From the IMG/VR virus record IMGVR_UViG_3300048904_000261: a stretch of DNA of 64,000 nt; one strand, written 5' to 3'. The stretch is from a virus. Positions 32,119 through 40,565 of the stretch are shown here, piece by piece. The position numbers and the translations under genes were made by a program. The notes below the pieces were generated by a model. The model saw nothing but the letters and a program-made list of their open reading frames with translations, had not been told where the DNA came from and did not search any database. Every line of letters starts with the position of its first letter. Positions within the stretch are counted from its first letter, which is position 1.

Positions 32119-32259
32119 AGATGTGGATTGGCAACGGTAGGAACCAAACCCACCACGGAACCAACGGCAAAGTTAGTGTATCAGAACGACAGGTCTTTGA
32201 AACCCGGCGTCAGACTACCAAAGCGTTTGCACAGACGGCAACCCGGACTTATTGGAAAG

Positions 32260-32460
32260 TTATTCACAGGCTTTTCCCAATGGTATGACCAACCAGAGCA
32301 ACGGGTTAATCTTCCTGGACCGGATCTTATACCCCATCTCTTTTGCCTCGACGTAAACGCGCGACGGTGACCGCGGCCACTCGAAGCATTCACCGCGCTG
32401 GATCATCCGGCGCGCGTGCGCGATTGAATCCGGAGCGAAGCAGGCGTCGAAGATGTTCAC
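32260..32460 (-). CDS. Possible small protein with GTG start
   Basis: GTG at 32460 overlaps the stop of the upstream gene (GTGA). 66 codons (VNIFDACFAPDSIAHARRMIQRGECFEW...). The upstream part of ORF 32260..32676 is a shadow frame. Confidence 0.3.
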   Translation of the reverse strand: MNIFDACFAPDSIAHARRMIQRGECFEWPRSPSRVYVEAKEMGYKIRSRKINPLLWLVIPLGKACE

Positions 32461-32735
32461 GGCCAGTCTTTGTAAAGCACGACGCCGTGCTTTTCCGGAT
32501 CCAGAACCTCGACGGCGTTGACACATGGATCGGCGTCGAGAATCAATTTCGCTATGACCAGCGGATCGCTCACACCGACGTCGTTGATTTTGCGTTCGAC
32601 CTTCAGCAACGCCGATTTGTCGAAAACCACGAAGCAACCACCGGGATCGGCATTTGGCATAGTCTCCTGGCGCCACACCCTCACATTGTAGCCGCAGACC
32701 TTCAACGGCGTCATCGATTCAAGGAGAAGATTCAT
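32457..32735 (-). CDS. Hypothetical small protein
   Basis: 92-aa ORF (MNLLLESMTPLKVCGYNVRVWRQETMPNADPGGCFVVFDK). Confidence 0.5.
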   Translation of the reverse strand: MNLLLESMTPLKVCGYNVRVWRQETMPNADPGGCFVVFDKSALLKVERKINDVGVSDPLVIAKLILDADPCVNAVEVLDPEKHGVVLYKDWP

Positions 32736-32740
32736 AAAGA

Positions 32741-33391
32741 TTATTTTTCCAACGGGTTAAGGTGAATTGAAGACAATGCTTGTTCGAGCGCTTGCTGCAA
32801 TGCCAGCCAGCCTTCCTGGGTACCGCCTTTGTCCGGATGCTCCGTCTGCGATCGGATTCGATACGCCTCCCTGATCGCCGTTTCGTTGGCCCACGAGCTG
32901 ACGCCCAGGATCACCCACCATGCGCTGCCTCCAGTCCGCTCGGGGATCGCCAGGTACCCGCGAAACGCCTGTTCGACGTTGGTGCAGCCCCAGCGGTGCC
33001 GTCCGCGCTGCGCCTCGATGTCCTTGCCGATCGCGTAAATGTTCCAGGCCACGCGGTTCCATTTGTCACAGGAAAGAACGACCGGCCGTTGATGATTCTT
33101 CCCGCCGCGCGAGAACACCAGGTTGAAGTAGATCGCAACGCCAGGATCGGCAGGTTCACTCTGGTCGGAGTACGGCGTCCCGTCGCGTTTGTAGCGTAAG
33201 TTGCTGGAAATAATTACAGTTCCGTCTTCGAAATCATAACGCCTGGTATTCAATCGGTTGATCTCCTGCAGGACGAAATCCACGGCGCCGGCGACAGTCT
33301 TCAGATCGAACCGCGCATAGCCGCGCTGATGTGGCGGCGTCCTGGCAATGTTCTCAGGCCAAGACAATGGAAATCTGGTGATCTCGCTCAC
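32741..33391 (-). CDS. J-domain (DnaJ-like) protein
   Basis: 216 aa. C-terminal WWVILGVSSWANETAIREAYRIRSQTEHPDKGG carries the HPD tripeptide in a J-domain helix II/III context. Confidence 0.7.
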   Translation of the reverse strand: MSEITRFPLSWPENIARTPPHQRGYARFDLKTVAGAVDFVLQEINRLNTRRYDFEDGTVIISSNLRYKRDGTPYSDQSEPADPGVAIYFNLVFSRGGKNHQRPVVLSCDKWNRVAWNIYAIGKDIEAQRGRHRWGCTNVEQAFRGYLAIPERTGGSAWWVILGVSSWANETAIREAYRIRSQTEHPDKGGTQEGWLALQQALEQALSSIHLNPLEK

Positions 33392-34581
33392 GGCAACGCC
33401 TTGCGCACCAGGGACGGCCCCTTCCTCTTGCGCTCAATCAAACCGTGAAGCGTCACGTTCACAATCTGTTTGGCCTCCTTTTGCGTGATCTTCTGCGGGG
33501 TGTTCCTGCGCGCTTGGTAGATGACTTCCTCCATATCGCCGACGCTCACGCGGCAGCAGCCGGAGAATTGCTTCGCGTCCATGATCCCCTTGAACGCGGT
33601 GTACGCGGCCGGGATGTCCGTGACGTGCCGGACCTCATCCCCAGGCTCCAGCACCCAGCCCGGGATCGTGTCTGGCATCGCTTCGATGATTTTCTTCGCG
33701 TCCTCGTAACGGTCCTCCAGGAACTTGGCCAGCTCCCTACGGCGGGACAGGAACATGTCCCATTGCTCGCTCGTCCACGTGACCGATGGCATGTGCTGGA
33801 GTTTCTCGAGGGCCATGATCCAGGACCGGTACTCCCCGCAGATCGGTTTGCACGGGCAGAATTGACATTGGATTTCCCCGGCGTAACGCGGGGCGTTCTC
33901 CTGATGGGCGGCGTCCCAAATCTCGTCAATCTCCTTCTTCGCCGTGGCGATGTCGTCCCCGGTGTAGAAAACGATGTCGGCCTTGTTGGCGCATCGCGGC
34001 TGGATGATCGCCCCGTAGAATGGCAGCAACGGATCCTGGGCCAGGATGAATTCGAAGAAGTCGGCCTCCATCCTCTCCGACTTCTCCACGACATCCATCT
34101 GTTCGGGCTTCAAATCGTCCCGGGGCGAAAGCGGCTCAGAGGCGGCTCTGTGAAGCCGGGTGCCCTCCGCCGCGTCTTCAGACCGGTCATCCTTCCAAAG
34201 CCCCTGGGCGGTCATGCTGCGCTCCAAGGCCAGTGAACCAGGACAAAGACTGAACCGTAAAAGCGAGCTTGGGCGGAATTCCTCCTCAACCCCGATCGCC
34301 GGGGCTTTGCCTTCCGCATCCTCCAGCTCCGCGAGCGGCAACATCACCAGGTAACACCTGAGCTGCATGTTGACGTCGGCTGGTGGGACTTCGCCCCGGC
34401 CGAACTTGCGGTCCAGGACCACGGTGACACCCAGCTTTGGGTACCGGCGCACCAGATCGGGCCGGCCCAGGAATATCGGCTTGCCGTCCCTCATGTAAAC
34501 GTGGCGTTCCTCGTTCAACTCAACGTAGAAGGGTGGTTTCATGGTTTGTCTGTTATCAGGGCAAGTCGCACTGTTAATCAA
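33388..34581 (-). CDS. PD-(D/E)xK nuclease with Cas4/AddB-type four-cysteine cluster
   Basis: 397 aa. N-terminal Cys in RFSLCPGSL. C-terminal IQCQFCPCKPIC fits C-x2-C-x5-C. Acidic/Lys motifs lie between them. Confidence 0.65.
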   Translation of the reverse strand: MINSATCPDNRQTMKPPFYVELNEERHVYMRDGKPIFLGRPDLVRRYPKLGVTVVLDRKFGRGEVPPADVNMQLRCYLVMLPLAELEDAEGKAPAIGVEEEFRPSSLLRFSLCPGSLALERSMTAQGLWKDDRSEDAAEGTRLHRAASEPLSPRDDLKPEQMDVVEKSERMEADFFEFILAQDPLLPFYGAIIQPRCANKADIVFYTGDDIATAKKEIDEIWDAAHQENAPRYAGEIQCQFCPCKPICGEYRSWIMALEKLQHMPSVTWTSEQWDMFLSRRRELAKFLEDRYEDAKKIIEAMPDTIPGWVLEPGDEVRHVTDIPAAYTAFKGIMDAKQFSGCCRVSVGDMEEVIYQARRNTPQKITQKEAKQIVNVTLHGLIERKRKGPSLVRKALP

Positions 34582-34814
34582 TGGTTCTGCTGCTTCGGTT
34601 CAGCGATGTCGCGAAAGCGATGCACTCTACAATCGGGGTTAAAACATTGACGGTGCGGCCAGTCACCCATGACCGACATTCCCTCAAAGCCGCAGGCCGG
34701 ACAGCATTCCAAAGACTCATCCGCAGCAGAACAAACCGGCTGGAGCGAACCGGGCTGAGCTTTCTCTTTTTCAGAGTCCAGCGGCCAGCAATCTCCTGGG
34801 TGTGCTAGTGCCAT
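34578..34814 (-). CDS. Small zinc-ribbon protein (tandem relative of the next gene)
   Basis: 78 aa. CCPACG...CFNPDC. Shares the N-terminal GSLQPV segment and upstream flank with 34815..35075. Confidence 0.55.
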   Translation of the reverse strand: MALAHPGDCWPLDSEKEKAQPGSLQPVCSAADESLECCPACGFEGMSVMGDWPHRQCFNPDCRVHRFRDIAEPKQQNH

Positions 34815-34838
34815 TTATGTCTTTCCGCCCGGTCGCTC
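34743..34838 (-). promoter_or_regulatory. Long-range stem enclosing the start codon of 34578..34814
   Basis: On the minus strand, GAGCGACCGGGC (34838-34827) pairs with GCCCGGTTCGCTC (34755-34743). 12 bp with one bulged T. The ATG at 34814 lies in the loop. Confidence 0.5.
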
Positions 34839-35075
34839 ACCCGGGGCGTTAGCCCGCCGATTCCATTCCGTGAGTTGGAAGTCATAGACGAGTTGGCCAC
34901 GCAGAAGACAGGTCGAGTCGTGCTTGCAGTAGATGCGCGGTCCATGTGGCGCGTTCACCAATGCCGCTTCCACTCCGCAGAATGGACACGGCAGAGGACG
35001 CGGCGGGCTAACCACCGGCTGGAGCGAACCGGCAGCCCGCTGGTCTTCATTAGGATTTCTCGATGTCATACTCAT
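34815..35075 (-). CDS. Lar-like (restriction-alleviation family) zinc-ribbon protein
   Basis: 86 aa. LPCPFCGVEAALV...YCKHDSTC...LTEWNRRA matches the CPFCG...WNRRA pattern of Lar-family proteins. Confidence 0.55.
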   Translation of the reverse strand: MSMTSRNPNEDQRAAGSLQPVVSPPRPLPCPFCGVEAALVNAPHGPRIYCKHDSTCLLRGQLVYDFQLTEWNRRANAPGERPGGKT

Positions 35076-35096
35076 GGGTCATTCTACCGGTCGCTC
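35022..35096 (-). promoter_or_regulatory. Long-range stem enclosing the start codon of 34815..35075
   Basis: GAGCGACCGG (35096-35087) pairs with CCGGTTCGCTC (35032-35022). 10 bp with the same bulged T. Confidence 0.45.
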
Positions 35097-35115
35097 ACCC
35101 GGAGCGTTCGGCGAA

Positions 35116-35409
35116 TCACGGACAGCAATAACCATCGTCAGTAACAAGCCATTTCCTGCGATGCGGGTCATAAATGGCACCCGTCGATGCTATCCACGTC
35201 TCGACGGCTTTCTTAATGCACCGATCATATTCCTCTCTTCTCATGCACCCCATGAGGTCCGTAAAATTGCCCACGATGAGACACCTTGCCACGACCGCTG
35301 TGCATTGCCTCGCCACCGCTGCCGCCGCTTCATGGCGTTCATTCTCTGTCAGCAGAACTTTTCCGGCCTGCTCCTCAATTTCCGCCTCCGACCACCACTT
35401 GTTTGCCAT
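35116..35409 (-). CDS. Hypothetical small protein
   Basis: 97-aa ORF (MANKWWSEAEIEEQAGKVLLTENERHEAAAAV). Confidence 0.5.
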   Translation of the reverse strand: MANKWWSEAEIEEQAGKVLLTENERHEAAAAVARQCTAVVARCLIVGNFTDLMGCMRREEYDRCIKKAVETWIASTGAIYDPHRRKWLVTDDGYCCP

Positions 35410-35421
35410 AGTGATTCGCTT

Positions 35422-35724
35422 TCAATATCCATCGTAGAACGGGCTTCCGTATTGCTCGGAGAGCGCCACCAAAAAATGAGCCAGTGCCCTGGCCTTGGCG
35501 ATTACGGTTTCCCGCATGTGACTCTTCCACTCATCCGGGATGGTTCCGAAGTCCTCGTAGAATACCATGTCTCCCCTCGTGTCCTTCACGCATACGCCAG
35601 CAGCGTTGTCTTGGTCGAGATACCACGGTAAGGGACAGACTCGTTTCAGTTGCTCCCAATTCGCCGAACACTGCGCTCCAGCGAACCGGCGCGCGCCTTC
35701 GGGTTTATCTGTGGTCTCTGGCAT
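35422..35724 (-). CDS. Hypothetical small protein
   Basis: 100-aa ORF. Its start codon lies inside a 15-bp long-range stem (35679-35694 / 35745-35759). Confidence 0.55.
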   Translation of the reverse strand: MPETTDKPEGARRFAGAQCSANWEQLKRVCPLPWYLDQDNAAGVCVKDTRGDMVFYEDFGTIPDEWKSHMRETVIAKARALAHFLVALSEQYGSPFYDGY

Positions 35725-35759
35725 ATTCAGGAGTCTCCGGTTGTGCGCGCCGGTCGCTG
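35679..35759 (-). promoter_or_regulatory. Long-range stem enclosing the start codon of 35422..35724
   Basis: CAGCGACCGGCGCGC (35759-35745) pairs with GCGCGCCGGTTCGCTG (35694-35679). 15 bp with the same bulged T. The outer G/C swap relative to the other two stems is compensatory. Confidence 0.5.
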
Positions 35760-36059
35760 AGCTTGGTCGTTAGCTGGCAGAGCACGCACGTAGGATTCGA
35801 TGAGCTTCGCCTTCCAGTCTCGCCGGCCATGTTCGAGGTCGCAGACATACATTGCGCTGTATCCCATTCGCCGCGCCATCTCGCGGCCAGATATTCCAGC
35901 GGCTTCGCGTGCCGTTTTCATCCGCAGACCGATTTGCGCCGGGTCACACACCGTCCCGCTTCCGCCGCATTGCGGGCAGACACGCTCCGGGATGCCAGCT
36001 AACAACTCACTGGAGCGAACCCGGCCATTGCGTTTTGGTTTCAATTCGGGAGTCTTCAT
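35727..36059 (-). CDS. XRE-family helix-turn-helix protein with N-terminal CxxCxGxG zinc ribbon
   Basis: ORF 35727..36119. ATG 36059 overlaps the upstream stop (ATGA). CPQCGGSGTVC. HTH LRMKTAREAAGISGREMARRMGYSAMYVCDLEHGRRDW. Confidence 0.65.
   Translation of the reverse strand: MKTPELKPKRNGRVRSSELLAGIPERVCPQCGGSGTVCDPAQIGLRMKTAREAAGISGREMARRMGYSAMYVCDLEHGRRDWKAKLIESYVRALPANDQAQRPARTTGDS
36010..36026 (-). repeat. Orphan copy of the downstream-arm element
   Basis: Plus strand CTGGAGCGAACCCGGCC. 33-49 nt inside the XRE gene. No upstream partner found. Confidence 0.5.
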
Positions 36060-36460
36060 GGCACTTCCGACCAGATCGGTGCATTGCGGTCTTTTGGCGC
36101 GAAAGAACTGGTGCGCCATTCGATCAAGATACCCTTCCGTTTCAGAGCACGCGCCGCCGATATGATGGGCAGTCGGCCATTTCCGCCGAGATCGGCTTGC
36201 ATATTGCAGGCGTGCTTTACCGCCCTGAGCACGCGCTGTTGAGTAGGCGAAACCGTGCCATAACCAATCGCTCCAGCGAACCCGGCTTTTGCGTTTACGA
36301 CATGGGTTTCCAGCACTGAGACTAGAAATTCATTTTTGCCCCTGTCCTGCGAGAGTTGCAGCCACCCATTGCGTTTGCCACAACATTTCCACCAACCCCG
36401 TTCATCAGTGATTTTGACCAGATCACCAACGCGCACAACACGGCGACGACTTGGTTTCAT
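36056..36460 (-). CDS. Hypothetical protein (possible winged-helix C-terminal half)
   Basis: 134-aa ORF. VSPTQQRVLRAVKHACNMQADLGGNGRLPIISAARALKRKGILIEW. Confidence 0.5.
   Translation of the reverse strand: MKPSRRRVVRVGDLVKITDERGWWKCCGKRNGWLQLSQDRGKNEFLVSVLETHVVNAKAGFAGAIGYGTVSPTQQRVLRAVKHACNMQADLGGNGRLPIISAARALKRKGILIEWRTSSFAPKDRNAPIWSEVP
36271..36286 (-). repeat. Orphan copy of the downstream-arm element
   Basis: Plus strand CTCCAGCGAACCCGGC. Shares the extended flank ..TTGCGTTT with the 36010 copy. Lies in a different reading frame. Confidence 0.5.
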
Positions 36461-36741
36461 GGTTTGTCTCTGTCGCAGAATGCGGTTGGGCAGTCGGAAA
36501 AGGTGCAGTGGTCCGGATCGGGGCAGTATTTATGGCCCTTCGGCTTGGGATGCCAGGGAGCTTGGTGTCCATGAATCGCGCACAGGATGTTTGCCGTTGC
36601 GGCCATGCAGCCGGCTGCGATCCATTCCACTGTGTCATCGTCCGATTTCGCAGCGGCCGCGCGCCAGTATTTGTATTCCGCAAGGACGATGGCTTCGATC
36701 TCTTCAGGAGTCATAAAAAATCCGCCGGGCGCTCCTATCAC
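36457..36741 (-). CDS. Hypothetical Cys/His-rich small protein; start uncertain (GTG 36741 or ATG 36714)
   Basis: 94-aa ORF. MTPEEIEAIVLAEYKYWRAAAA...HGHQAPWHPKPKGHKYCPDPDHCTFSDC. ATGA overlap with the downstream gene. Confidence 0.5.
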   Translation of the reverse strand: MIGAPGGFFMTPEEIEAIVLAEYKYWRAAAAKSDDDTVEWIAAGCMAATANILCAIHGHQAPWHPKPKGHKYCPDPDHCTFSDCPTAFCDRDKP

Positions 36742-37012
36742 TCCTGGGTTACGGGAGTGAGCCCCGGAGCGCCCGGGTCAGTGACAAACGGGTCACCAAA
36801 TTGGCGTTACGGTTGGATTCTATCCGTAACCTGGGCGGATGCTGCAGACAGAGCCATCCCAGGCCGAAGCCTTTCACTTCCCCGTAACATTTGCGACGGT
36901 TTCGCGTGCGCCTTTCTCCCTTGCGGGGTGGTGGACAGGCGCGCAATGCCACCGCCTTTCGGCTCGGCCACCGACAACGCTTTCTGCCCAGCAGACGCCT
37001 CGCGTGAATTGT

Positions 37013-38389
37013 TCATTTCCTCGCCGCGTGCCTTCGGTTAATCCGGATCTGCCCGGCGATCGCCTCGATGTTCTCCGCGAGATCCTCCAGCACGTCATCG
37101 GGCAACTGGACGATCTGTTCGGTGGTAGGCTCGCAGAGCTTCCGGAATTTCAGCACGTCCAGAACTTCGGTTTCCGTGATTTTCTGCGCGCCGATCAACT
37201 CGTAGCATTTTGCTGCAAGGACGTTGGACGGAGCCGCCGGAGCGCTGCCGAATAGTTCGCCTGCAGGAGCGGCAGGAGCTTCTGGCGCCTTCGGCGGTTC
37301 CGGTTCCTGGGGCGGGGCTGCCATGGCCGCTTTCTTGGCCGCACGCGCATCGCGCGCCTTGGCCATACGCGCCTGGGCTTCGGTCATCACCGGATCCCCA
37401 GCCTGCGGGGTAGTTGCTGCCGGATCTTTGGCCGGTTCAGTCTTCGCAGGTTCAGTCTTTGCCCCTTCGCTGGCAGGGGCCAGACCGGCGGCAGCTTCCG
37501 CTTTCTTATCCGCTTCGGCCTTCTTCGCGGCCGCTTCCGCTTCGGCCTTCTTTTTCTTTTCCTCATCGAACTTGGCCGCTTGTGGGGCCGATGGGGTTGC
37601 GATGTCGAAGAAATCCTCTCTTTTACCCATGCCATCCTTCAGGGACGTGAAGATCTTCCGGAGAATGACCATTTCCTGCTCCGAAACTGCGCTCAACTTG
37701 TGTTGCAATCGGCGCTCCAACATCTCCACGGACACCTGGAAGTCGGCGAACGCCGTCACCATCTTGCGAACGCGATCCACCAGCGGTTCGGTATGCCCGG
37801 TCTTCAGGGTTTTATCGCATTGCTCGATCGCGGAGTCGATGATGTCGCGAGGAATCACCGCTTCCATGCAGGCCCGCTTCCGGCGCGCGGCGAAATTGGC
37901 GACGTGCTCGTATTGGTCCCTTGGATCGGTCAGCTTCTCGATCCCGGCGGTCTTCGTGTAGCGTTCGTGCCGCACGGTGAAGGTTTTGAAGTCGTGCGCG
38001 TTAGTCTCCAAGTCCCAGGCGATCGCCATAACGCGGCTTTCCCCGTCCACGTTGTCCAGCTCGATGACGCCACTCTGGAAATTCCCCCATTGCTGGGCGA
38101 TCACCTCCAGAAGTCTGATGGATGCGCCGCTGATTTGCGTCCCGCCGCGCGCGTAAAGGTAGGTTGCCTCCTCCGCGAGCCCGGGCCGCTTGCACGCCTC
38201 GATGATTCGCTGGAAGGCGGCGTGCTGATCGCGCGGGAATTTTTTGGCGACAACCAGGGCAGCCTGGATCTGCTGCGCTTCACGGGATTGGGCGAGCTGG
38301 ACAAGCGCAGACTGGTCATTAGCTGCCACGGCGAAAGGGTTTTCACTCATAGTGCCGATGAGATTCAAACCCGCCTTGTAATTTTGCAA
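37013..38389 (-). CDS. Putative recombination / ssDNA-annealing-type protein (family not resolved) with K/A/E-rich disordered linker
   Basis: 458 aa. Start is TTG 38389 or ATG 38350. Conserved-looking core ATYLYARGGTQISGASIRLLEVIAQQWGNFQSGV...VMAIAWDLETN. First gene of the minus arm. A Cas4-type nuclease lies downstream. Confidence 0.35.
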   Translation of the reverse strand: MQNYKAGLNLIGTMSENPFAVAANDQSALVQLAQSREAQQIQAALVVAKKFPRDQHAAFQRIIEACKRPGLAEEATYLYARGGTQISGASIRLLEVIAQQWGNFQSGVIELDNVDGESRVMAIAWDLETNAHDFKTFTVRHERYTKTAGIEKLTDPRDQYEHVANFAARRKRACMEAVIPRDIIDSAIEQCDKTLKTGHTEPLVDRVRKMVTAFADFQVSVEMLERRLQHKLSAVSEQEMVILRKIFTSLKDGMGKREDFFDIATPSAPQAAKFDEEKKKKAEAEAAAKKAEADKKAEAAAGLAPASEGAKTEPAKTEPAKDPAATTPQAGDPVMTEAQARMAKARDARAAKKAAMAAPPQEPEPPKAPEAPAAPAGELFGSAPAAPSNVLAAKCYELIGAQKITETEVLDVLKFRKLCEPTTEQIVQLPDDVLEDLAENIEAIAGQIRINRRHAARK

Positions 38390-40068: not shown

Positions 40069-40346
40069 AAACCGAAGCTGAAATCCAGAAGGCGCACGAC
40101 ATCCTGGTCGAGATAATTCTCAACCGCGTTCCCAATCCGTTCCCGCCGAAGACGCGGGAATTGCTGATGGCACGGATGGATGTCCTGTGCTGGGCATTGG
40201 ATCATGACCACAACAAGAGCTTCGAAGAGAATCTGGAGAAGATTCAGAAATTCCTGGCGCAACTGGGCTACTCGCTGAACACAGCCGCCGCGCCATTCAC
40301 CGAGGACACGCATCCGATGGGGCCGACCACGGGAATACCTACGTGA
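40065..40346 (+). CDS. Hypothetical protein
   Basis: Internal ATG of ORF 39954..40346 with an ATGA overlap. 93 aa. Confidence 0.55.
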   Translation: MKTEAEIQKAHDILVEIILNRVPNPFPPKTRELLMARMDVLCWALDHDHNKSFEENLEKIQKFLAQLGYSLNTAAAPFTEDTHPMGPTTGIPT

Positions 40347-40558
40347 GCCGAAACCGAAAACCGCTGGACATCTCCAGTTTCACTTTGCTGCCCTGCCCGT
40401 TCTGCGGCGGGAAGGCTGACATCGAGCTTATCGAAAACGGAATCGAGACCCGGAAGGTTGCGGGCTGCAACACCAAATTTTGCCAGGGCTATCAATCGGC
40501 GCACGCCTTCGCTACCTACAAGGAAGCTGCCGCTGCATGGAACCGTAGAGCCAAGTGA
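40343..40558 (+). CDS. Lar-like (restriction-alleviation family) zinc-ribbon protein
   Basis: 71 aa with a GTGA overlap. LLPCPFCGGKADIE...CNTKFC...YKEAAAAWNRRAK. Confidence 0.65.
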   Translation: MSRNRKPLDISSFTLLPCPFCGGKADIELIENGIETRKVAGCNTKFCQGYQSAHAFATYKEAAAAWNRRAK

Positions 40559-40565
40559 AGAAGTT

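What the first reader, a model, noticed from the sequence alone, without database searches (positions are those of the whole stretch)
34743..36286. Start codons of three consecutive small genes are enclosed by GC-rich long-range stems that show compensatory changes
On the minus strand, three genes share the same arrangement.

- Gene 34578..34814: GAGCGACCGGGC ... ATG ... GCCCGGTTCGCTC.
- Gene 34815..35075: GAGCGACCGG ... ATG ... CCGGTTCGCTC.
- Gene 35422..35724: CAGCGACCGGCGCGC ... ATG ... GCGCGCCGGTTCGCTG.

All three share the same bulged T. The outer pair switches together (GAGCG:CGCTC versus CAGCG:CGCTG), and the inner extension differs yet stays complementary (GGGC:GCCC versus GCGCGC:GCGCGC). 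The downstream arm lies 30-70 nt inside the coding sequence and is read in different frames (GSLQP in the first two genes, RRFAGA in the third). Two further downstream-arm copies (36010-36026, 36271-36286) lie in two more frames, and I could not find partners for them.

The 50-70 nt loops contain the ribosome-binding region and the ATG. This suggests translational occlusion, an RNase III site, or a DNA cruciform or protein-binding element. The first two genes are tandem paralogs, so part of the repetition is duplication. The third gene is unrelated in protein sequence.
Basis: partly seen in the sequence, partly recalled or inferred. Interest (0 to 1): 0.62.

Follow-up and report, generated by a model that had tools for sequence, protein, structure and literature searches.

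The report
Integron attC sites in a phage
The GC-rich stems around the three start codons are integron recombination sites (attC hairpins) that mark swappable gene cassettes in a phage genome. They are unusual because each gene lies on the strand that recombines and starts inside its own hairpin loop.

Summary
Three long imperfect hairpins (minus strand 34723-34855, 35001-35116, 35659-35779) each enclose a ribosome site and ATG. Two more 3'-arm copies lack partners. The stems are about 30 nt per arm, not 10-16, and run from ...CTAAC to GTTAG...

They are integron attC sites:
- The same hairpin family forms same-strand arrays of 8-17 sites that end just upstream of integron-integrase genes in other viral contigs (TIGR02249 hits at 312 and 275 bits, cut-off 265).
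- The stems covary.
- Two bulged bases sit on the 3' arm, as in attC bottom strands.
- Each gene body is flanked by its own 10-14 nt GTT.../...AAC complement.
- A relative with about 99% identical flanks lacks one cassette exactly from AA|C to AA|C, and a second to within 2 nt.

The window has no integrase, so this is an integrase-less attC cluster (CALIN) in a phage, a kind published in 2023.

The unusual part is that the genes lie on the recombining (bottom) strand and start inside the attC loop, the reverse of a class 3 integron control. I found no published report of this layout. Two earlier notes of this scan describe the same reversed layout on other DNA.

An RNA-level effect on translation is possible but secondary and untested.

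The parts
34723..34855 (-). attC site 1, belonging to the Lar-like 1 cassette. R' box GGGCTAA|C (crossover between 34849 and 34848), core GAGCGACCGG 34838-34829, loop with TAAATG (ATG at 34814), 3' arm CCGG-T-TCGCTC 34753-34743. Bulged T at 34749 and bulged C at 34742. R'' box GTTCTGCTGC 34732-34723.
   Evidence: Model R1 scores 76.2 bits, E 4e-17. The stem is in the RNA and DNA MFE folds. The L001 relative lacks 34848->34586 exactly.
35001..35116 (-). attC site 2, belonging to the Lar-like 2 cassette. R' box ATTCGCCGAA|C (35116-35106), core GAGCGACCGG 35096-35087, ATG at 35075 in the loop, 3' arm CCGG-T-TCGCTC 35032-35022. Bulges at T 35028 and C 35021. R'' box GTTAGCCCGCCG 35012-35001.
   Evidence: R1 scores 81.9 bits, E 1e-18. 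The stem is in the RNA MFE. It is not the MFE with DNA parameters.
35659..35779 (-). attC site 3, belonging to a two-gene cassette. R' box TGCCAGCTAA|C (35779-35769), core CAGCGACCGG 35759-35750 plus CGCGC extension, ATG at 35724 in the loop, 3' arm CCGG-T-TCGCTG 35689-35679. Bulges at T 35685 and G 35678. R'' box GTTCGGCGAAT 35669-35659.
   Evidence: R1 scores 84.6 bits, E 3e-19. Folds.
35992..36103 (-). Decayed attC site 4. The 3' arm is intact (CGGGTTCGCTCCAG 36023-36010, R'' GTTAGCTGGCA 36003-35993). The 5' arm has been replaced, leaving only a remnant R' GTGCCATGAAG at 36064-36054. The HTH gene's ATG (36059) lies in what was the loop.
   Evidence: R1 scores only 17.2 bits, E 0.1. No stem in the fold. 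The same site is complete in L001 8461-8581 at 61 bits.
36255..36286 (-). 3'-arm-only half site 5, inside ORF 36056..36460: CCGGGTTCGCTGGAG followed by R''-like GTTATGGCAC (36264-36255). The R''-like box complements the remnant GTGCCAT at 36064. In L001 the sequence diverges directly after ...TTCGCTG.
34585..34848 (-). Cassette 1: attC site 1 plus the Lar-like zinc-ribbon gene 34578..34814. Its own ends are GTTCTGCTGC ... GCAGCAGAA|C. It is present in the window and absent from L001, and it sits next to the attI-like end.
   Evidence: L001 reads GGGCTAAC|CATTGA where the window has 264 extra bases.
34849..35106 (-). Cassette 2: attC site 2 plus Lar-like gene 34815..35075. Its own ends are GTTAGCCCGCCG ... 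CGGCGGGCTAA|C. The ORF's stop codon is supplied by the next element: it ends NRRANH* in L001 and NRRANAPGERPGGKT* in the window.
   Evidence: PF14354 Lar_restr_allev E 0.0012 and phrog_599 E 4e-6. The complement across the gene body is 12 nt. L001 ORF.
35107..35769 (-). Cassette 3: attC site 3 plus two ORFs (35422..35724 and 35116..35409, no family match). Its own ends are GTTCGGCGAAT ... ATTCGCCGAA|C. It is absent from L001, with a junction within 2 nt of AA|C.
   Evidence: 11-nt complement across the gene bodies. No Pfam or PHROG hit.
35727..36059 (-). HTH (HTH_31) gene of the cassette behind decayed site 4. The body is flanked by GTTAGCTGGCA ... TGCCAGCTAA|C.
   Evidence: PF13560 E 3.6e-8. 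Inverted repeat I16, 14 nt at 93%.
34568..34586 (-). attI-like end of the array: AA|C CATTGATTAACAGTGCG, followed by the PD-(D/E)XK exonuclease gene (ATG 34541) where relatives have intI.
   Evidence: The same C-nn-TGATTAAC-A motif follows the last cassette and precedes intI in L038 and L053, with a TCATTAAC variant in L133.

Best explanation
The stems are attC recombination sites of an integron-type gene-cassette array carried in the early region of an uncultured phage of about 78 kb, probably a phage of Verrucomicrobiota.

Read on the minus (coding) strand, each cassette has this layout:
- C of the R' box
- 5' arm
- loop holding the ribosome site and ATG
- 3' arm with two bulged bases
- R'' box GTT...
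- gene body
- ...AA

How it is expected to work: when this strand is single-stranded it folds. An integron integrase recognises the bulged bases and cuts between A and C of the 5' AAC. Cassettes are then excised (attC x attC) or inserted at the attI-like end (AAC|CATTGATTAAC).

Shown: the structure, its covariation, its identity with sites arrayed next to intI genes elsewhere, and cassette-exact differences between near-identical phages.

Inferred: that an integrase made these changes, and which one. No integrase lies in the 64-kb window, so the enzyme would be the host's or one encoded in the unseen rest of the phage.

The genes lie on the recombining (bottom) strand, so every gene begins inside its own attC loop and translates the 3' arm as a short leader in whichever frame applies. 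This is the reverse of textbook cassettes.
For: 1. Family and enzyme. The pattern AGCGACCGG-N40-70-CCGGTTCGCT finds about 20 unrelated viral contigs with the full architecture. Model R1 finds same-strand arrays of 8-17 sites spaced about 220-770 nt (a few up to about 1.7 kb) in L026, L027, L038, L039 and L053. In L027, L038, L053 (same contig as L030), L024 and L133 (genome G004) the array ends 180-260 nt to about 1.8 kb upstream of a tyrosine recombinase on the same strand. These recombinases hit NCBIfam TIGR02249 integron integrase at 312, 275, 256 and 250 bits against a cut-off of 265. They carry the IntI-specific insertion, and one is 43% identical to IntI3.

2. Structure. 80% of cells are paired, and the covariation score is 0.248 against 0.076 in shuffles (0 of 500 reach it). 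Sliding the 3' partner by 1-3 columns drops pairing to 29-38%. Both bulges sit on the 3' arm. That is where the extrahelical bases of attC bottom strands lie (PMC2727003), and where the bulged G of attC(blaGES-1) lies on the intI3-sense strand of a class 3 integron control.

3. Complements across gene bodies. The R'' box after each site complements the R' box before the next site over 11, 12, 10 and 13 nt in four of eight neighbouring pairs tested (window and L047). Same-hairpin pairs give 3-7 nt, and only 5 of 749 unrelated pairings reach 9 nt. Three further window pairs read from the sequence give 10-14 nt.

4. Cassette borders. L001 (flanks mostly 98-100% identical) lacks cassette 1 exactly from AA|C to AA|C and cassette 3 to within 2 nt. 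The same cassette sits in different contexts with homology starting at the AAC of the 5' arm: L035 against L045, and L024 against L038 and L039.

5. A conserved attI-like motif follows the last cassette, both in the window and in arrays that carry intI.

6. Complete or nearly complete phage genomes carry the same sites: G004 (96% complete, 3 sites plus IntI), G005 and G006 (100% complete, no IntI).
Against: - No integrase was found in the window (tblastn) or in the 34.6-kb relative. About 14 kb of the phage was not seen.
- Recombination was not observed directly.
- The bulged bases are T and C/G rather than the usual G and T, and there is an extra helix between the L and R boxes.
- With DNA parameters site 2 does not fold into the long stem as its MFE.
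- Two breakpoints between the window and L001, at sites 4 and 5, fall inside the loop or just after the core rather than at AA|C. They look like ordinary homologous or illegitimate recombination.
- Four of the eight neighbouring pairs tested showed only the 3-7 nt background complement (L001, L026, L027 and one L047 pair). Two of these have a likely cause: the wrong GTT was picked in L001, and the L027 pair is 3.3 kb apart with other sites between.
- The cassette 3 junction in L001 carries 2 extra A.
- Some of the array-rich 'viral' contigs could be misclassified bacterial DNA.
Confidence: 0.9

Rival explanations
1. The hairpins are primarily mRNA structures that control translation of each small gene. 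Options are occlusion or coupling (the upstream ribosome melts the 5' arm) or RNase III processing. Under this reading their similarity to attC is incidental.
For: - The hairpin strand is the sense strand.
- The RNA MFE folds contain the stems.
- The RBS and AUG lie in the loop in 23 of 29 family members.
- Upstream ORFs often stop inside the loop right before the next ATG (TAAATG at 34817-34812; TGAatATG at 35729-35722).
- attC hairpins in mRNA are reported to interfere with translation of downstream cassettes (PMC8876359).
Against: This reading does not explain the 10-14 nt complements that span whole gene bodies. It does not explain the arrays ending at integron-integrase genes, the cassette-exact indels at AA|C, or the strand-specific bulges matching attC bottom strands. 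At most it is an added effect of the site lying on the coding strand.
Confidence: 0.05
2. The repeats are conserved linker sequences at which general homologous recombination shuffles modules, for example by the phage's own RecT-like annealase (37013..38389) and PD-(D/E)XK exonuclease (33388..34581). No site-specific enzyme would be involved.
For: The array lies between the annealase and exonuclease genes. The breakpoints at sites 4 and 5 fall in a shared 22-nt stretch AAACGCAA..GCCGGGTTCGCT or just after the core, not at AA|C. Other window/L001 differences are plain mosaic replacements without any arm.
Against: Cassette 1 is bounded by only 3 shared bases (AAC), too few for homologous exchange. 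Homology of shared cassettes starts at the AAC, not in the highly conserved core. Conserved bulges, stem covariation and the linkage to IntI are not expected of simple linkers.
Confidence: 0.04
3. Each gene body is a miniature transposon bounded by 30-38 nt terminal inverted repeats (MITE-like with cargo). Under this reading the apparent hairpins are just the neighbouring ends of adjacent elements.
For: Inverted repeats I1, I2 and I16 flank gene bodies.
Against: The unit missing from L001 is hairpin plus gene, not gene between repeats. Gene 1 has no full repeat at its 3' end. The stem extensions next to the loop are specific to the hairpin partner (GGGC:GCCC, CGCGC:GCGCG), which adjacent independent elements would not give. 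There are no target-site duplications and no transposase.
Confidence: 0.01

Closest known systems
Integron attC sites and gene cassettes (IntI, attI, attC; Bouvier et al. 2009, PMC2727003)
   Same: - Imperfect palindrome about 105-135 nt long with AAC/GTT boxes at the ends.
- Internal unpaired spacer and variable loop.
- Two bulged bases on the 3' arm of one strand.
- Crossover at AA|C of the 5' arm.
- The cassette's own ends are complementary over 10-14 nt.
- Same-strand arrays end at attI and intI, with intI sense on the bottom strand, as in the class 3 control.
   Different: - Genes are on the bottom strand, pointing toward intI, and start inside the attC loop. In the class 3 control, blaGES-1 and aac(6')-Ib are on the opposite strand with attC after the gene.
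- The bulges are T and C/G rather than G and T.
- There is an extra covarying helix between the L and R boxes.
- The core sequence is strongly conserved (SAGCGACCGG / CCGGTTCGCTS).
CALINs and integrons in bacteriophage genomes (Qi et al. 2023, PMC9892861)
   Same: A cluster of attC sites without an integrase inside a phage genome. Cargo is small early genes, with methyltransferases in related arrays (MT-A70 and C-5 methylase in L034 and L039).
   Different: That study covered 21 sequenced phages. By term search the paper does not mention start codons inside attC or genes on the opposite strand. This family comes from uncultured phages, and its bacterial copies are mostly in Verrucomicrobiota genomes.
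Inverted integron-integrase group (Treponema and others; mentioned in Cury et al. 2016, PMC4889954)
   Same: The integrase and the cassette genes are transcribed in the same direction.
   Different: There the integrase is inverted relative to the attC sites. Here the attC-to-intI geometry is the classical one (bottom strand is intI sense, array at the 5' side of intI), and it is the genes that are reversed.
attC hairpins acting on translation of downstream cassettes (Jacquier et al., as summarised in PMC8876359)
   Same: A transcribed attC folds in the mRNA and can affect ribosomes entering the next gene.
   Different: There the site lies between genes on the top-strand transcript. Here the initiation region itself is in the loop, and the 3' arm is translated.

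Membership tests
Integron attC site | R' and R'' boxes with conserved AAC and GTT at the two ends of an imperfect palindrome 57-142 nt long | tested here: met
   The three sites span 133, 116 and 121 nt from ...CTAAC/GAAC to GTTAG/GTTC/GTTCT. The AAC:GTT columns pair in 21-25 of 28 family members. Definition taken from PMC2727003.
Integron attC site | Extrahelical bases on one arm only (the R''-L'' arm, which is the 3' arm of the bottom strand), 6-8 nt apart | tested here: met
   A bulged T and a bulged C/G, 7 nt apart (six paired bases between them), both lie on the 3' arm in all three sites and across the family. The control attC(blaGES-1) shows its bulge on the 3' arm of the intI3-sense strand. 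The base identities differ from the usual G and T.
Integron attC site | Conserved structure with a variable sequence (covarying stems) and a variable terminal loop | tested here: met
   Covariation score 0.248 against a shuffled mean of 0.076, with 0 of 500 shuffles reaching it. 11 of the 21 pairs of the main helix (12 of all 26) change on both sides. Loops are 39-80 nt.
Integron attC site | Marks cassette borders, with crossover at G|TT (AA|C on the bottom strand), and the cassette's first bases complement its own inverse core | tested here: met
   Cassette 1 is absent from L001 exactly from AA|C to AA|C. Shared cassettes begin at the AAC. Complements across gene bodies are 10-13 nt, against a 3-7 nt background.
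Integron attC site | Occurs in same-strand arrays next to an integron integrase (IntI with its extra segment) | tested here: met
   Met for the family: L030/L053 at 312 bits and L038 at 275 bits exceed the TIGR02249 cut-off of 265, while L133 (256) and L027 (250) fall just below it. Arrays. Not met for the window itself, which has no IntI.
Integron attC site | Recombined by IntI as a folded bottom strand | not testable with these tools
   This needs a suicide-conjugation or excision assay.
Complete integron (intI + attI + Pc + cassettes) | An intI gene adjacent to the array | tested here: not met
   tblastn with the L027 IntI at E up to 10 found nothing in the window. TIGR02249 found nothing in the nearest record. 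The window's element is therefore filed as a CALIN. About 14 kb of the phage was not seen.
Complete integron (intI + attI + Pc + cassettes) | An attI site at the integrase-proximal end of the array | tested here: inconclusive
   The window has AAC|CATTGATTAACAG after its last cassette. The same TGATTAAC motif precedes intI in L038 and L053, with a TCATTAAC variant in L133. Its function is untested.
CALIN (cluster of attC sites lacking an integrase) | At least two attC sites on one strand within 4 kb and no intI nearby | tested here: met
   Three sites with E below 1e-16 lie on the minus strand within 1.1 kb, with no IntI. The definition follows Cury et al. 2016. IntegronFinder's own model was not available.
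Textbook cassette layout | The gene lies on the top strand with attC downstream of it | tested here: not met
   The genes (HTH_31, Lar-like) are on the strand that carries the bulges in its 3' arm, and they start in the loop. In the class 3 control the genes are on the other strand. This is a usual feature of cassettes, not a defining one.

The most novel reading that the evidence does not exclude
A phage-adapted form of the integron. In phages probably of Verrucomicrobiota, cassettes use the same attC type as chromosomal arrays of that phylum, but they carry their gene on the recombining bottom strand. Each cassette therefore begins with its own attC, whose loop holds the ribosome site and start codon. 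The whole array is read toward attI and, where present, intI. New cassettes would then land at the promoter-distal end and borrow their stop codon from the neighbouring element. Bacterial contigs with the same site (L205, L143) appear to keep the classical gene orientation.
Probability: 0.6. Interest if true: 0.65.

Novelty: new variant of a known kind. Interest (0 to 1): 0.55.

Why it matters
Integrons are best known as bacterial gene-capture platforms, and their presence in phages was reported only in 2023. This array suggests that a phage lineage uses integron cassettes for its early accessory genes (Lar-like restriction-alleviation proteins and an HTH regulator here; methyltransferases and a likely PAPS-reductase-like protein in relatives). 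Near-identical phages differ by whole cassettes.

The reversed layout, with the gene starting inside its own attC, would change how such cassettes are expressed and how annotation tools should call them. It also offers a natural system for asking how one sequence serves as both recombination site and translation start.

For genome annotation, it explains a class of 'conserved N-terminal motifs in three frames' as DNA-level sites.

Tried and rejected
Searches that found nothing:
- Close relatives in the phage database.
- Exact-protein look-ups for the annealase and the exonuclease.
- A metagenome scan with the exonuclease and a genome scan with the annealase.
- Rfam on the region at E up to 1.
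- tRNA genes in the window, which removes a tRNA or attP reading of the GGTTCG motif.

Searches that gave mostly chance matches:
- The exact 16-mer CCGGTTCGCTCCAGCC in viral contigs. Only the near-identical relative was real.
- The two-arm pattern in bacterial genomes. Only 9 loci passed the model.

Other negative results:
- Pfam on 38 window ORFs showed no recombinase.
- Among 80 loci fetched with an IntI alignment, none but L053 (the same contig as L030) carries this attC core.
- The more distant annealase relatives L002-L004 have no such sites.

Readings considered and dropped:
- Replication-origin iterons: the spacing of 260-660 nt is too wide.
- Restriction site CTGGAG/CTCCAG: the switch is simply the covarying pair.
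- REPIN or MITE elements: see the rival explanations.
Full report
**What is in the sequence**

The region is part of a phage early block on the minus strand. A RecT-like annealase gene (37013..38389, phrog_3657) is followed by several small genes and then a PD-(D/E)XK/DUF2800 exonuclease gene (33388..34581). The same window holds a terminase, a DnaB helicase and other phage genes.

Five exact copies of CSGGTTCGCTSSAG lie on the minus strand within 1.55 kb. Three of them have an upstream partner, SAGCGACCGG. RNA folds of these three regions contain the long stem around the ribosome site and ATG, with z-scores of -2.1 to -2.9. The other two copies have no partner.

The arms are longer than described. 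Each is about 30 nt and runs from ...CTAAC on the 5' side to GTTAG... or GTTC... on the 3' side. A second bulged base lies 7 nt after the bulged T.

**The first clue: differences from a near-identical phage**

A viral contig, L001, has flanks that are mostly 98-100% identical to the window. It differs from the window in this block by whole units:

- Window 34848->34586 (hairpin 1 plus its gene) is absent. L001 reads GGGCTAAC|CATTGA, so the unit runs exactly from one AAC to the next.
- Window 35750->35108 (hairpin 3 plus two genes) is absent, with a junction within 2 nt of the same position.
- The stretch between the two orphan copies is replaced by another gene. That gene brings a complete 5' arm for the copy at 36010.

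Other differences between the two genomes are ordinary replacements with no arms involved.

**The second clue: complements that span each gene body**

The sequence just after each 3' arm complements the sequence just before the next 5' arm, across the whole gene body:

- GTTAGCTGGCA...TGCCAGCTAAC
- GTTCGGCGAAT...ATTCGCCGAAC
- GTTAGCCCGCCG...CGGCGGGCTAAC
- GTTCTGCTGC...GCAGCAGAAC

The two window pairs that were scored, together with three from the L047 array, give 11, 12, 10, 7 and 13 nt. Within one hairpin the run is 3-7 nt, and only 5 of 749 unrelated pairings reach 9 nt. Three other neighbouring pairs (L001, L026, L027) gave only 3 nt. Two of these have a likely cause: the wrong GTT was picked in L001, and the L027 pair is 3.3 kb apart with other sites between.

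This is the signature of integron cassettes: the first bases of a cassette match the inverse core of its own attC. The literature gives 9-11 nt of such pairing for most cassettes (PMC2727003).

**The family and its enzyme**

A two-arm pattern search of viral contigs gave 30 loci. About 20 have the full architecture, including an ATG in the loop. An alignment of 28 sites shows strong covariation outside the selected cores. The pair next to the core is G:C in 14 sites and C:G in 13. The overall score exceeds all 500 shuffles, and sliding the 3' partner by 1-3 columns drops pairing from 80% to 29-38%.

A covariance model built from this alignment (R1) finds arrays of 8-17 sites on one strand, mostly about 220-770 nt apart, in several contigs. 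In the window it finds exactly the three sites (76-85 bits) plus the decayed fourth at 17 bits.

In five contigs the array ends upstream of a tyrosine recombinase gene on the same strand. These proteins score 312 and 275 bits on NCBIfam TIGR02249 (integron integrase, cut-off 265), and 256 and 250 bits for two others. They contain the IntI-specific segment, and one is 43% identical to the class 3 integrase. The hairpins are therefore attC sites of a true integron lineage.

Two phage genomes rated 100% complete (G005, G006) carry such sites without an integrase. One rated 96% complete (G004) has three sites followed by IntI.

Among bacterial genomes, 7 of the 9 loci that pass the model are Verrucomicrobiota.

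**Which strand recombines**

Three lines of evidence agree that the coding (minus) strand is the attC bottom strand:

1. The bulged bases lie on its 3' arm. The extrahelical bases of the bottom strand lie on that same arm, the R''-L'' arm.
2. The cassette border lies at AA|C of its 5' arm. This is seen in the window-L001 comparison and in the same cassette found in different contexts: L035 against L045, and L024 against L038 and L039.
3. In all five integrase-linked contigs, intI is sense on this strand and lies downstream of the array.

As a control I examined a class 3 integron plasmid. The bulge of attC(blaGES-1) is also on the 3' arm of the intI3-sense strand, but blaGES-1 and aac(6')-Ib are on the other strand.

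So the site-to-integrase geometry here is classical, and the genes are reversed. In 23 of 29 sites an ORF of at least 40 codons starts in the loop and reads through the 3' arm. All three frames are used: 11 in frame 0, 9 in frame 1 and 3 in frame 2. These ORFs include recognisable proteins, such as a DPPW-motif (MT-A70-type) methyltransferase and an SGGKDS-motif (likely PAPS-reductase-like) protein.

In two Verrucomicrobiota contigs (L205, L143) the longer ORFs between sites are on the opposite, classical strand. This rests on ORF length only and is weak evidence.

**Ends of the array**

After the last cassette the window reads AA|C CATTGATTAACAG. Arrays with an integrase read C-AGTGATTAAC, C-AGGTGATTAAC or C-AATCATTAAC just before intI. 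The window therefore keeps an attI-like end, but the exonuclease gene stands where intI would be.

The cassette present in the window and absent from L001 is the one next to this end, which is where an attI x attC insertion is expected. At the other end, sites 4 and 5 are decayed. Their breakpoints against L001 fall in the loop or right after the core, which looks like ordinary recombination between the conserved cores.

ORFs commonly run over the cassette border and stop in the neighbour. The Lar-like 2 protein ends NRRANH* in L001 and NRRANAPGERPGGKT* in the window.

**Comparison with what is known**

attC sites, CALINs and their presence in phages are published (PMC4889954; PMC9892861). The window's element is a CALIN in a phage.

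I found no report of cassettes whose gene lies on the bottom strand and starts in the attC loop. This rests on literature searches and term look-ups in three papers. Two earlier notes of this scan (e1-3581676 and e1-3541052) reached the same reading on other DNA. I arrived at it independently before reading them, but they are not independent evidence.

They are untested and cannot account for the cassette evidence.

**Limits**

- No integrase was seen in the window, and about 14 kb of the phage was not available.
- The cassette-border evidence comes from a handful of comparisons.
- With DNA parameters site 2 does not fold into the long stem as its MFE.
- IntegronFinder itself could not be run.

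Noticed in passing
window 34534-34551 and 36452-36469: An exact 18-nt direct repeat (minus strand AGACAAACCATGAAACCA) supplies the ribosome site, the ATG and the first codons (MKP) of both the exonuclease gene and ORF 36056..36460. It therefore brackets the whole cassette block (repeat D16). It may be the phage's standard CA-rich leader, or a trace of how the block was inserted.
   Followed up: no
L133 (G004:C1:1701-5636) and G004:C1:524-2956: A 52-kb viral genome rated 96% complete has three attC sites of this family directly followed by an IntI-like gene (256 bits on TIGR02249). This is an apparently complete phage-borne integron with all genes co-directional.
   Followed up: partly
L205 6275-7843, L143 7001-7619 (Verrucomicrobiota MAG contigs): The same attC type occurs in bacterial contigs. 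There the longer ORFs between sites lie on the opposite (classical) strand, unlike the viral arrays. Judged by ORF length only.
   Followed up: partly
window 36056-36460 against L001 7906-8184: One ORF keeps an identical 65-residue N-terminal part in both phages, but continues differently right after the attC core TTCGCTG (134 aa in the window, 92 aa in L001). It appears to be a gene fusion made at a half attC site.
   Followed up: partly
window 40329-40565, 36888-37006, 36720-36722, 32192-32473: Four further replacement or indel differences from the near-identical contig have no hairpin arms at the junctions. This is ordinary phage mosaicism.
   Followed up: partly
L038 705-2452, L039 4778-5689, L034 4611-5252: Cargo in or beside related arrays includes an MT-A70 and a C-5 DNA methyltransferase. 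This matches the methyltransferase cargo reported for phage CALINs (PMC9892861).
   Followed up: no
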